Shown here: in pieces, positions 16,701 to 64,000 of the stretch
Numbering within the stretch: the first letter of the stretch is position 1
Layout: each line of letters opens with the position of its first letter
Translations under genes and position numbers: made by a program
The notes under the pieces: model-generated
Told to the model about the DNA's origin: nothing
Databases searched by the model: none
The model's input: only the letters and a program-made list of their open reading frames with translations
Assembly: GCA_043228905.1 (NCBI GenBank)
Contig: JBHGNT010000012.1
Coordinates: 7,130,001 to 7,194,000 of the forward strand
Direction: 5' to 3'
Source of the DNA: Azolla caroliniana
Taxonomy: Eukaryota > Plantae > Polypodiophyta
Length of the DNA: 64,000 nt

Positions 16701-18845
16701 ACACTAAGAAATCGTCAGATGCATGCAACAATTTTTTATTGATATAGCTAAATAATTGGGAGGAAACAAGTCCATATATAATAACATATGAAATATTCAA
16801 TGGAGAAATGTGGAACATGCAAGGTGTCTCCAATAGCATTTCGAATATGGCATTTGAGAAGCAAGAAGAAAAAGGGATACAAAAGAAGCCCATGAAATCA
16901 AAGACACCACACAAACATGTTATTCATGGTGATTCAAATACATTGCATATTAAAATTTTTGAAATATATCAATTTTCAAATCGTACTTTGATTACAAAGC
17001 CTATTGTATGTCTAGAACCATATTTGAGAACCTAATCCTCTTAATAATGTAGAGTGGAAGAATTCAAACATTTAGAATAGGGCATATGCGAAACAAATGG
17101 TTCATATTCAAACATGATTTCCATATTTCGAAGGATCACGTTGTCGCGTTGTTACGCGCGTGCGTGGAGAAAGAGGTGGGACCACGGGGGTCTCGGACGA
17201 AGGAGAGAGAAGAGAGAGAGAGAGAGAGAGAGAGAGAGAGAGAGAGAGAGAGAGAGAGAGAGAGAGAGAGAGAGAGAGAGAGAGAGAGAGAGAGACAGAG
17301 AGAGACAGAGACAGAGAGAGATGCAAGTATACAGAGAGAGATTAAGATCAAGAAAACAGGAATCTGATTACTATAGTCAGTAGCTTACAACCGGCAAACC
17401 GGTAACGGACCCGACACGGGGTCCTACTCACGCACACCGACGACAACCACACGACTCAAAGAAACAAGAGGGGAAAGGGGAAGGAGAGAGAGGCTCTGCT
17501 GGAAGCACACGGGCTGTCCACGAAGCAAAGGCAGCGAACTCCCGACACCCGCAGAGAACGACGATTTGAGGAGAGAGAGAGAGACCGGCACTCGGTTCTG
17601 CCGCAACACTTCGTCCTCACCAACGCGTGATCCCCCTTTCTCCCTTCTCTCCTCTCCTTAAATAGTTCCCAAAAGGGGGTGCCCTTTCTCCCTAGTCAAA
17701 TCGCTTTATTCCTTGTCTCTTCTGATAGAGATACACACAATCCCCCCTAATAAATGTGTACTACTTAGTATTTACATCAGCCGATCCATTTATGAATCAT
17801 GTACAAAATATCAAAATATCAATTCATGCGCCCATCCGTGTAAGAGCCGGTTCATGCGCCTTTTTCTCCGATTCCGCCTATGCCCGATTTTCTTCACGAC
17901 AATGTGGAATAATTCAAACATTTAGAATATGCAGGCACATATACATACATGGTATTCATTGGCGATAATGGCACGTCCTCATGGTGATTATATATGTGCT
18001 TACAATGCTTAACTAATCTCTACTATGTAATATTATCATTGTTGTCATCCAATAGGAAAATAACAAACCTATGATGTGTATCCACATTTATGTGCTCGAA
18101 ATATTGCATTCCTACGTATGTAAACATGAATACATAAGTGCTCAAGATAATCGTACCTTGTGTTGTAACTAAGTACGTGAGATAATCAATGCTTGAGCAA
18201 ACATATTTTGTGTTGCTTTGAGCTTAGTTTTGTTTGGTGGAAAACAATGAAAATGGGTTGAAAGAAAATACAAAACTATTGTTTCTAATTCAACATTTCT
18301 TCATATTGATGGTGAAATTATAACAATGCATTTATATGATACATTTGAAAAATGGAACAACTAAGTCTCTCACCATGTTAGAATATGGAACCATGTGATC
18401 AAATGTAAATGAAAAGAAACCATAAACGATGTAAAAAATAAAAATAACCATGAAAATACATACCTATTATTGCCTTCGTTTTGCGGATCGAATGTAGGTG
18501 GTTGGGAAGTGCTCGCTGGCGGAAAGTGGTGCTCCTCTCTGATTCTCCCTCCAAATACCCTAAAACTCTCTTTTCAAAATAGATTCAAAATGAGTGATTC
18601 AATGCTCATTAATAATGAGTGGGGCTCCTAGCCCGACTTTGGATTAATGAGCGGGCCTCCTTGTGACAGAGGTTGTTAAGCAGCGGGGCTCCTAGTGACA
18701 GAGGTTGTCAGACAATTTCTTCGCGCATTTTTTTTTCCGCATCGGACGGTGTTCATCGCACATGCCCTCAGTTAAGCGACCTACACCGTCCCTCTCCGTG
18801 ATTCCCTCACTTGCCCTCTTCAATTTTTGGAGGTATTTAGACACG
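13704..18845. mobile_element. Long-TIR DNA element (superfamily unassigned) with subterminal GAGCCC/GGGCTC repeats
   Basis: Left end cgtgactaactactaccaaaaattaaagagggcaagtgagggaatc... is the reverse complement of the right end ...gattccctcacttgccctcttcaatttttggaggtatttagacacg over ~110 bp. Decayed Cys/His-containing minus-strand ORF fragments at ~15800-16620. Carries a nested solo LTR at 17142. Confidence 0.65.
17142..17901 (-). mobile_element. Solo LTR of the CG-targeting family (copy E)
   Basis: TGTCGCGTTGTTAC...TCTTCACGACA, same termini as the LTRs at 53917/57635; 4-bp TSD ACGT/ATGT; internal (GA)n. Confidence 0.85.
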
Positions 18846-18881
18846 TCGGTATGTAGTATGTGTATGTGTATGTGTATGGCT

Positions 18882-19033
18882 CATGTCTAACTACTACCAA
18901 ATACATATTAAAGAGCGCAAGTGAGCGAATCGCGGGCGCGGACGTGCAGGTCACTCAGCTGACGACGCGTACAATCTGCACCGTCTGATGTGGATAAAAA
19001 GTTGACAATGTCTACCACTTAGAGCCCGACTCT
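18882..19033 (+). mobile_element. Second copy of the left end of the long-TIR element (truncated)
   Basis: catgtctaactactacc...gagcgcaagtgagcgaatcgcgggcgcggacg...gagcccgactc matches 13704-13855 and is again preceded by (TATGTG)n-gctc. Confidence 0.75.
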
Positions 19034-61200: not shown

Positions 61201-61807
61201 ATGTGGGACGTGTAACTATCCGATTCTGAAACGAATGCCAATGGTCTCAATGACCTAATTACTGAGAGAGAATTCTGGTAACCATCGTAAGGTGATTAGG
61301 TCTACTGGTTTTCATCGGGGCGGTCTTATGAGATGATTAGAGTGTATCTCATCACATTCCAGATCTATCAAATAGTCGATGTAAAAGAGTAATGGATATG
61401 GAGAGTTTGACTCATTGAGAGTACGACGCAGAAAGTCAAGTCTTGCGATACTTCTCAAGCCAGCCCTTCGTGGTGCTTGACGGAATTGTCTAAAGTTGTT
61501 CTCGGCTCTGGTAACAGAGTTCGCTCCGAAGCCGTCTTGGCTTTTTTTTGGCCCTCACCACCTCATGAAGACGAATGAATGGGCCGCATAGATATTCTTA
61601 TGCTAATCTTCTCGAAAGCGGCGCAGTAGTAGCATCTAGGTGTGCAAATGGTTGTAGCGGGGGCTGGGTCAGTCAGATCATCCGCAGGTGCACTTGAGTG
61701 GAAGTTATTGATCTGGAATTCTTTCCTATAGAGACTTGGCCGGCCGGGAAGAACCGGTTGATAACCCATGGCTTGCTTGCTTGCTTGCTTGACGGCTGAA
61801 GAAGCGG

Positions 61808-64000
61808 TGTCGTGAAGATCTGTCACTAGGCGCGGATCGCGAGGCGGAACCGCCGGGGTTCTGGACCGGAAGGACTCGAAGTTTGCACAAGCTTTAGCGG
61901 GAAAGGAATAAAGATAGATTGAAAGAGAGAGAGATTGAGATAAGATAGAGCGCTTGATTTTAGATTGAGAGAGAGATTAAGAACTCTTGACTTTAGATTT
62001 CAAGAACAAGGTATATCATCCAAAGGATAACGAATTTTCTTCTTAATATTAATTTTAATTTAAAGTACAAAGTTTTCTTTTTTTTTCCAAGAAAAATACC
62101 CCCCATTGATCTTTTTCATTTCCTCTTTTATAGATGGCCTCATGCATTTGAGGGTTCAAGACATCCATAAAATGCATGTTTGTCATTTGGCGCTCATGTA
62201 TTACATGTGGTGCATGATAACCATGTCACTCATTTTAGCTCTCATGTATGAGAATTTATATGTAAAAGTACAATGATAGAAATATAATTTTAGCTAAATA
62301 TCTTGGCTTAGTGGTAAGCCAATTGACTTCTAACTTGGAGGTGCAAGGTTCGAATCCTTACTTTCCCTCCTTGTATATGTATATATGTATATATATTTAT
62401 ATATTTATTTATCTAGTCGCTAGATGCCGTTGCCGGATGCTGCCGGTTACCGCCTCGCCAGCGCCGTCGCCGGTTGCCGATGGCTGCCCCCGGTTATCGG
62501 TGGCCGCCGCCTCGCTGGTGCACCGCCGGATGTCGGTTCCAATGGCTCGCCAACTCCGTCGGATCACCGGTTGCTGGTGTGCCACCGTCGCTTTGCCGGT
62601 TGCCGGTGGCCAAAACCTTTACGAGTGCTAGGCCACCTCCACTCTTAGTTCAAGTTACCTTGAACTCTATATGCTCTACACATAAACACAAAGATAATAG
62701 CTTCTGCTCTACCTTATATATGATGAGAGCCGTATTTGTCGTGCCTATGTGGGATATCTCACAATTTTCTCTTTTCCTTTCACAAACTTTATACCCTCAT
62801 ATTTTGACATCTAGTTGTCCGTTTCTCATGTAATAAAGTGCATTCGAAAGCTCTTGAAGGCCTCCATCATTTTGTAATTAGATATTAAACTTATTTAAAA
62901 TGTTATTTTCACTATTGTTGTTTTATGTGATTCATACTTGATTTTGTACGTTTTATGTGATTTTCACACCATTGCCGAAAATCTTCACGACATCCACCTC
63001 CATCAAACCGCATGTCCTCCGATACGTGCCAAGAAGAGAGAAAGTGAGATTTCGGAAATGGTGATCAACATGACTCCTCCACGTCGAGCATGTCCTTTCC
63101 TTTGCACTCGAATCATGGTTGCCAGCCAATCCACCATATCATTCGTCTTTTCTTTGCTTTACCATGACTTGTTGTCATGGCCCCTTGCTCCCTTCTTGAG
63201 TGTTTCCTTCGTGAGGATAATCGTTTAAGTCTCATAAATGTTCCACCTTTGTCTCGATCGTCTCCTTGCTCAAGGCACTTGGACTCATTCACAGTAGTGT
63301 CTTTGATAGATGTTTTGATCACATCCGTCAAATCCTCATGGCTCGCTTGGCCATCGCCATCCCTTGCCATATTTTGCGCAAATTCTTCGTTGCACACATA
63401 AGCTTTAACCCTTACTTCTTCCCCGTCATTATCCTTCTCTTGGGTCTTACATCGGTTAAAGCCCAAGTCTCCGGAAAGAGTGTGGAGGGACCCATACATT
63501 TCTGTCGTTTGCCTTTTTCGTGCCGCAGTTAGCCATTTCCATCTTAATGTTTCTTGAATCAGCATTGATCTTTGCTTCCTTGCCGTCGTTGCGCGAATTA
63601 GCATTGACCTTTGCTTCCTCGCCGCCAGGTTCCGCCTTTTGCTGCATGTATTAGTTTTAGCCTTCGGTTCTTCGCCATCACCTCCCGTCTCTTGGGTCTT
63701 ACATCAGTTCTCGGATGCAATTGCCCAAGTCTTTGGAAAGAGTGTGGAGGAAATTTGGCCGTCGTCATTGTTTGTACTATCTTTGTCCTTCTCTTCCTTT
63801 TTGCCACCATCCGTCTCTCCGGTCTCACGTTGGTTTTCGGACACAACCGCCAAAGTCTCTAGAATTAGTGGGTTGGATTCCTTAGTATTACCTTCCTCCA
63901 TCATTTCTTCCATAGCCTCCTTCTCGGCTATCCCTTCATCATATACATCGACTTTGATCTTTGTTGTCTCTCCTCCATCTTCCGTCTCTTCGGTCTCACG
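61808..64000 (-). mobile_element. Member of the same family (copy D): 3' LTR plus internal 3' region, continuing beyond the window
   Basis: LTR 61808-62992 with 12-bp terminal inverted repeat TGTCGTGAAGAT/ATCTTCACGACA; flank GCGG; PPT at 62993-63003; PLILETLAVVSENQRETGE and IWWIGWQ match copy B. PBS lies outside the window. Confidence 0.88.
62300..62367 (+). ncRNA. tRNA-like A-box/B-box cassette inside LTR D
   Basis: TGGCTTAGTGGTAA ... aagGTTCGAATCCtt; canonical boxes; shares tggaggtgcaaggttc.aatc with the cassette in copy B. Confidence 0.62.

What the first reader, a model, noticed from the sequence alone, without database searches (positions are those of the whole stretch)
17138..62992. 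LTR family whose five target sites are all 4-bp and centred on CG
Seen: target sites are ACGT (17138-17141; right copy ATGT, as expected from 5mC deamination), ACGG (23133-23136 and 23860-23863), GCGT (27123-27126; right copy partly deleted), CCGT (53913-53916 and 58205-58208) and GCGG (61804-61807; one side only). The other LTR insertions with resolved TSDs here have 5-bp TSDs with no shared motif (CGGTC, CTTCT, GAAAC, GGTAT, AATAT). If local CG frequency were about 0.1 (an assumption), five of five would occur by chance roughly 1e-5 of the time. Known: most plant LTR elements make 5-bp TSDs with weak preference; sequence-specific 4-bp TSDs are known in some Drosophila errantiviruses. Inference: an integrase supplied in trans recognises CpG, possibly methyl-CpG, steering copies into CG-rich TEs. 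At least four of the five sit inside other TEs.
Basis: partly seen in the sequence, partly recalled or inferred. Interest (0 to 1): 0.85.

Follow-up and report, generated by a model that had tools for sequence, protein, structure and literature searches.

The report
Fern retrotransposons inserting at CG sites
Five jumping-gene copies in what is likely a fern genome all sit at four-base target sites centred on CG; the pattern is real but is the already published signature of the Phygy group of plant retrotransposons, to which they likely belong.

Summary
All five insertions abut an NCGN site. Removing B or D plus one 4-bp copy restores the host copia reading frame. In independent loci, 17 of 19 LTR flanks read NCGN and the other 2 NTGN, against 5.3% local CG. 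Contigs laid on one LTR start agree.

It is not new. Neumann 2019 (PMC6317226) lists the Phygy clade of Ty3/gypsy with 4-bp NCGN TSDs (100% of 186) and a tRNA-Trp PBS (81%). Another paper reports Phygy in ferns, and the host gene here is fern-like.

The five copies are several LTR families of one clade, not one family. Two are solo LTRs, two are gag-only and one runs off the window. Autonomous partners with the same PBS encode gag-protease plus a -1-frame RT-RH-INT, with no chromodomain or aRH found.

Methyl-CpG sensing is untested and not needed: plain CG preference explains nesting in CG-richer TEs. RT monophyly with the moss Phygy reference could not be tested.

The parts
17142..17901 (-). 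A: solo LTR, 760 bp, TGTCG...CGACA; TSD ACGT 17138-17141 / ATGT 17902-17905
   Evidence: last 78 nt 83-85% identical to the D LTR; resembles L044/L077 LTRs
23137..23859 (-). B: solo LTR, 723 bp, inside copia pol; TSD ACGG 23133-23136 / 23860-23863
   Evidence: frame restored; 72% to C LTR
27127..30599 (+). C: non-autonomous element; 5' LTR 27127-27964, 3' LTR 29776-30599 (last 14 nt missing), shared parts identical; TSD GCGT 27123-27126 / 30598-30601
27969..27986 (+). C primer-binding site, 18 nt, 4 nt after the LTR (tRNA-Trp assignment recalled, not tool-verified)
   Evidence: same 18-mer follows an LTR-like end at 101 of 121 sites in metagenome loci
28003..29511 (+). C ORF, 502 aa: gag N-terminal about 200 aa fused to an acidic/basic low-complexity tail; no zinc knuckle, protease or pol
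   Evidence: 54% identical to the N-terminus of gag-protease P0090/P0091
29764..29775 (+). C polypurine tract before the 3' LTR
   Evidence: sequence
53917..58204 (-). D: non-autonomous element in copia RT; 5' LTR 57635-58204, 3' LTR 53917-54486 (12 of 570 mismatches); TSD CCGT 53913-53916 / 58205-58208
57613..57630 (-). D primer-binding site, same 18 nt, 4 nt after the LTR
57277..57594 (-). D gag remnant (39% to C gag), interrupted by stops downstream
61808..62992 (-). E: 3' LTR, 1185 bp, preceded by a polypurine tract (62993-63003); element runs off the window; target GCGG 61804-61807
   Evidence: (79% to L040 over 1248 columns)
10366..10818 (-). Host gene exon (FAN-type PH domain) used to place the host: best match Ceratopteris richardii 71%, lycophyte 53%

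Best explanation
These five insertions are solo LTRs and gag-only copies of a Ty3/gypsy clade, likely Phygy, in what is likely a fern genome, and they sit at NCGN sites with a 4-bp duplication that is likely cut by an integrase borrowed from autonomous relatives. SHOWN: 4-bp duplications (B, D), CG at the centre here and in independent flanks, shared TGTCG...CGACA ends and 18-nt PBS, no pol in C or D, and autonomous partners with the same PBS, ends and gag that encode RT-RH-INT. INFERRED: the partner's intasome cuts both strands 4 bp apart and selects the central CG step itself, by bending the target at this pyrimidine-purine step plus base contacts, with no separate reader domain. Insertion density then follows CG density, which favours CG-richer older retrotransposons (about 0.07 CG) over AT-rich DNA (about 0.015). 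Later methylation and deamination would turn some sites into TG/CA.
For: Window sites. Independent flanks: 17 of 19 NCGN, 2 NTGN, G at -2 in 19 of 19, background 55 of 1039 (binomial p 3e-20). Laid contigs: loose-end consensus ends ACGG in both runs; among shown rows matching GT at -2/-1, C at -3 in 34 of 42 (X1) and 31 of 41 (X7) against 18.6% expected. Phygy in print: 4 bp 100% NCGN, Trp 81%, 7.7-10.0 kb, no extra domain; 4-bp TSDs and nesting into Tcn1 in moss; present in a liverwort and ferns. Partner L038 spans 7859 bp; 5 of 5 pol ORFs scanned give RT-RH-INT and no chromodomain or aRH family at E<=0.05. The integrase model aligns along most of its length to foamy-virus and Ty3 integrases and the chain ends about 25-40 aa after the GPY/F motif. 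RT-RH is 67-71% identical to Riccia and Adiantum proteins and intermixed with them in a tree.
Against: No Physcomitrium Phygy sequence could be obtained, so clade membership rests on features, not on a tree. The Trp identity of the PBS is recalled; 0 of 31 viral loci matching the PBS core held a tRNA. The 19 flanks show one side only, so they test the motif, not the duplication length; the one locus with both ends (L038) has CCGC left and ACGT right, probably a collapsed assembly. The start motif found an LTR start in only 26 of 57 evaluable sites, and 7 of these were set aside as PPT-preceded. 17 loose-end rows were hidden. The bending/base-contact mechanism is inference from retroviral intasomes (recalled), not tested.
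Confidence: 0.87

Rival explanations
1. The integrase, or a partner protein, reads methylated CpG specifically and so steers copies into silenced TEs.
For: 3 of 5 window copies are nested in copia elements; TG variants at the C position (site A; 2 of 19 flanks; 8 and 10 contigs) show these CGs get methylated at some time; the pol N-terminal about 130 aa has no identified family.
Against: No chromodomain or other reader family in 5 pol ORFs; integrase architecture is ordinary; site A lies in CG-poor DNA (0.015) with no TE match found; flanks of the 19 loci hold only 5.3% CG; asymmetric ACGT/ATGT at A dates deamination after insertion; the Drosophila ZAM subgroup targets CGCG in an animal with almost no CpG methylation (established knowledge).
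Confidence: 0.08
2. The clade is a separate non-chromovirus lineage (for example TatI-like or a Ylt1-like sister) that shares 4-bp TSD and Trp priming with Phygy by convergence or deep ancestry.
For: TatI also has 4-bp TSDs and a Trp PBS (4 elements); the gag's look-alike clusters include basidiomycete ones with DUF4100; no direct tree with Phygy.
Against: TatI has aRH in 100% and none was found here; NCGN is stated to be particular to Phygy among plant lineages; size and lack of extra domains fit Phygy; closest named relatives are liverwort and fern proteins.
Confidence: 0.1
3. The CG pattern is chance or an ascertainment effect of looking inside CG-rich TEs.
For: Only five sites, grouped after the fact; three lie in DNA with about 7% CG.
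Against: 17 of 19 independent flanks at exactly -3/-2, at most 4 of 19 at any other offset from -20 to -2; same result in two sequencing runs.
Confidence: 0.01

Closest known systems
Phygy clade, non-chromovirus Ty3/gypsy (Neumann et al. 2019, PMC6317226)
   Same: 4-bp TSD with NCGN; PBS read as tRNA-Trp (recalled assignment); partner length 7.9 kb within 7.7-10.0 kb; no chromodomain, no aRH; nesting into other LTR elements (PMC6911290); reported in liverwort (PMC12885004) and ferns (PMC13477047).
   Different: Defined from Physcomitrella; host here is fern-like. Window copies are solo LTRs and gag-only derivatives with long low-complexity ORF tails. Polyprotein layout is 'ND' in the paper; here gag-protease then RT-RH-INT in the -1 frame.
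TatI (Neumann et al. 2019)
   Same: 4-bp TSD, tRNA-Trp PBS (75% of 4 elements).
   Different: TatI always has aRH and no TSD motif is listed; no aRH found here.
Selgy (Neumann et al. 2019)
   Same: 4-bp TSD (96%), non-chromovirus, overlapping ORFs.
   Different: tRNA-Ala PBS, about 5 kb, overlap between GAG and PROT, no NCGN listed.
Drosophila errantiviruses, ZAM subgroup (PMC5408687)
   Same: Sequence-specific target containing CG (CGCG).
   Different: Animal errantivirus lineage; fuller palindromic motif; no relationship tested here.
Prototype foamy virus and Ty3 integrases (PDB 3l2q, 7q5b)
   Same: Best sequence and fold matches of the partner integrase; PFV's 4-bp duplication and target bending at the central step are recalled.
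   Different: About 20% identity; PFV has only a weak sequence preference (recalled).

Membership tests
Phygy | Ty3/gypsy order RT-RH-INT in the autonomous element | tested here: met
   5 of 5 partner pol ORFs; window copies themselves lack pol
Phygy | 4-bp TSD | tested here: met
   B and D by empty-site reconstruction; A and C consistent; E one-sided
Phygy | NCGN target motif | tested here: met
   5 of 5 in window; 17 of 19 independent flanks
Phygy | tRNA-Trp primer-binding site | tested here: inconclusive
   Conserved 18-nt TGG-initial PBS in C, D and the loci; the Trp label is recalled, and no tRNA gene was retrieved to confirm it
Phygy | No chromodomain and no aRH | tested here: met
   No such Pfam family at E<=0.05 in 5 pol ORFs; chain ends shortly after GPY/F; integrase model matches ordinary integrases
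Phygy | Element length 7.7-10.0 kb, mostly polyprotein | tested here: met
   L038 spans 7859 bp (its assembly is probably collapsed, so approximate)
Phygy | Monophyly of RT/RH/INT with Physcomitrella Phygy references | not testable with these tools
   REXdb fasta supplement too large to read; no named Physcomitrium hit among the best 120 listed of 329
TatI | aRH domain in the polyprotein | tested here: not met
   No second RNase H family in 5 pol ORFs or 2 gag-protease proteins; the fold test of the pol N-terminus was uninformative
Chromoviruses (Tcn1, Tekay, Reina, Galadriel, CRM) | Chromodomain or CR motif at the integrase C-terminus | tested here: not met

The most novel reading that the evidence does not exclude
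The Phygy-type integrase reads methyl-CpG directly at the centre of its target, giving bryophyte and fern retrotransposons a chromodomain-free way to aim at already silenced DNA, and a swarm of gag-only parasites rides on it.
Probability: 0.08. Interest if true: 0.6.

Novelty: new member of a known kind. Interest (0 to 1): 0.17.

Why it matters
Modest. It extends a published target preference (NCGN, Phygy, moss) to a fern-like genome and to non-autonomous derivatives, and supplies intact partner integrase sequences from public contigs with which the untested question (does 5mC at the CG help, hinder or not matter?) could be asked in vitro. A strongly CG-selective integrase is a useful model for how intasomes read target sequence. 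It is not a new kind of element.

Tried and rejected
No whole genome is held, so no genome-wide TSD logo; replaced by metagenome loci and laid contigs. (951-bp LTR stretch) was crowded by internal variants and showed no terminal flanks. The PBS gave 0 matches in viral contigs. Attempts to confirm the primer tRNA led nowhere: no tRNA in the window, none at the PBS in 24 loci, none in 31 viral loci, 0 hits. Rfam: 0 matches in the window. Pfam gave no family for the C gag. The pol N-terminal 300 aa model was poor (pLDDT 59, pTM 0.30) with no Foldseek match at E<=0.001 and best Z 3.4: uninformative, not evidence of a new fold. Cluster look-ups named no Physcomitrium protein. The RT tree (31 rows, midpoint root, no outgroup, 25 of the 120 listed hits) shows mixing with Riccia and Adiantum proteins but cannot test Phygy membership. 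PMC7466625 has no TSD or Phygy passage. Earlier scan findings: none returned. Literature searches for a methyl-CpG or fern-specific account: 'NCGN + retrotransposon' 2 papers, 'Phygy + fern' 3, 'Phygy + moss' 4, 'LTR retrotransposon + integrase + CpG dinucleotide + target site preference' 1 unrelated, fern/non-autonomous search 20 of 42 listed, none on this by title; the library lacks most subscription papers. Rejected: single LTR family; chance; TatI; chromovirus.
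Full report
OBSERVATION. The five insertions and their target sites are at the stated coordinates. A (17142-17901) and B (23137-23859) are solo LTRs on the minus strand. 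C (27127-30599, plus) and D (53917-58204, minus) are complete two-LTR elements. E (61808-62992) is the 3' LTR of a minus-strand element that leaves the window. The 4-bp length does not rest on eye-matching: removing B or D with one 4-bp copy restores the reading frame of the host copia, and D's empty site aligns without gaps to an uninterrupted copia copy. C's 3' LTR lacks 14 terminal bases but GCGT is still read at 30598-30601. Local CG frequency at the five sites is 0.015-0.073, product 2.5e-7.

Three corrections. The LTRs are several families of one clade: B/C 72% alike, A/D sharing only their last 78 nt, E only 17-24 nt pieces. Nesting in another TE was verified for B, C and D only; no TE match was found for the immediate flanks of A and E. 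I re-paired 2 of the 5 control 5-bp TSDs.

INDEPENDENT TEST. No genome is held. After dropping one duplicate contig (L014), 101 of 121 PBS sites follow an LTR-like end, 84 of them CGACA. Of 57 sites with enough upstream DNA, 26 had an LTR start motif 450-1500 nt upstream; 7 were preceded by a polypurine tract (collapsed assemblies or tandem copies) and were set aside. Of the other 19, 17 read NCGN and 2 NTGN; G at -2 is invariant; background CG in the same flanks is 55 of 1039; no other offset from -20 to -2 exceeds 4 of 19; no two flanks were over 60% alike. These are one-sided flanks, so they test the motif and not the length, and they probably come from the same or related hosts. The one locus with both ends, L038, has CCGC left and ACGT right, so its assembly probably mixes copies. 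Laying contigs of two runs on C's LTR start gave loose-end consensus ending ACGG for 21 and 19 contigs, and, among shown rows that match GT at -2/-1, C at -3 in 34 of 42 and 31 of 41 against 18.6% expected; the exceptions have consensus T. Seventeen rows were hidden, including any for G at -2 being changed.

WHAT THE ELEMENTS ARE. C and D carry the same 18-nt PBS 4 nt after the LTR and a polypurine tract. Their ORFs are the N-terminal part of a gag fused to low-complexity sequence; full relatives continue into a zinc-knuckle-like motif and an aspartic protease (P0090, P0091, 54% identical). No pol of this clade is in the window, and C's LTRs are identical over 824 bp, so C moved recently and likely in trans. 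Autonomous partners with the same PBS, ends and gag are among the loci (L015, L018, L022, L032, L038). Five pol ORFs scanned give RT, RNase H, integrase zinc finger and core, and no chromodomain or aRH family. The L038 integrase model (pLDDT 74) matches foamy-virus and Ty3 integrases along most of its length, and the chains end in a short acidic tail after the GPY/F motif. RT-RH is 67-71% identical to named Riccia sorocarpa and Adiantum nelumboides proteins, which mix with the partners in an unrooted tree. The host exon's best match is Ceratopteris richardii (71%) ahead of a lycophyte (53%), so the host is likely a fern.

MECHANISM. Shown: 4-bp stagger, central CG, trans dependence by anatomy. 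Inferred: the integrase core selects the central CG step itself, through target bending at a pyrimidine-purine step as in the foamy-virus intasome (recalled) plus base contacts, since other such steps were not seen. A plain CG preference would by itself favour copia DNA (about 0.07 CG) over AT-rich DNA (0.015) several-fold. TG variants fit methylation and deamination after insertion: site A keeps CG on one side. Methyl-CpG recognition is not excluded but has no direct support; the ZAM subgroup of Drosophila targets CGCG (PMC5408687, passages) where CpG methylation is nearly absent (established knowledge).

COMPARISON WITH THE LITERATURE. Neumann et al. [quoted passage not shown] Their element list and fasta supplements were too large to read and would settle membership. 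PMC6911290 (passages) reports 4-bp TSDs with GC-rich centres, 4 bp dominant in Phygy, and Phygy nested in Tcn1 in moss. PMC12885004 (passages) lists Phygy in a liverwort; PMC13477047 (one passage) says ferns contain Phygy and Tcn1. PMC8282616 and PMC13469084 only name the lineage (passages). PMC2864245 (passages) describes fungal Ylt1-like elements; a link to them is only a lead. It works like Phygy on every feature tested; membership is likely but the tree test was not possible, and the Trp label of the PBS is recalled. I found no paper in the searches run that shows NCGN in a fern or tests methylation dependence.

VERDICT. Real feature, known kind. New only as a fern-like, non-autonomous instance with partner sequences in hand and a candidate -1 frameshift between protease and RT. 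Interest 0.17; the methyl-CpG reading has probability about 0.08 and would deserve about 0.6.

Noticed in passing
L038 ~3977-4040, L015 ~3143-3205, L018, L022, L053, L016, L032 (ORF1 stop): ORF1 (gag-protease) ends in GGATTTT plus a stop in 6 of 8 partners examined (L032 GGATTTC; L080 no match), mostly followed by a hairpin whose loop could pair downstream; pol is in the -1 frame in 4 of 4 checked. Candidate -1 frameshift between protease and RT; the Phygy layout is 'ND' in Neumann 2019.
   Followed up: partly
L001-L121, between LTR end and PBS: The spacer between LTR end and PBS is unusually long and variable: 4 nt in 47 of 101, range 1-9 nt.
   Followed up: no
window 28003-29511, 54487-57634, 62993-64000; P0089, P0097: Non-autonomous families keep long open gag-plus-acidic-tail ORFs (620-670 aa in relatives) and share a tryptophan-rich motif near the 3' end; whether protein or RNA signal is unknown.
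   Followed up: no
window 27130-27152 and 23834-23856: The B/C LTR begins with a 10-bp hairpin (-12 kcal/mol).
   Followed up: no
window 48051-48197 and 36239-36335: 147-bp TG...CA element with long inverted arms and a 5-bp TSD (AATAT); a related copy starts an insertion in the second copia.
   Followed up: no
L009, L020, L023, L052, L060, L073: A different group of sequences carries the same 18-nt PBS after a TGTAAACA end in AT-rich DNA; probably an unrelated LTR lineage using the same primer.
   Followed up: no
window 1861-10818 (minus): Exons of a FAN-type PH/BEACH-like host gene spread over at least 9 kb; best match Ceratopteris richardii.
   Followed up: partly
L038 pol residues about 36-126: Moderately conserved small alpha/beta segment before RT with no family or fold match.
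   Followed up: partly
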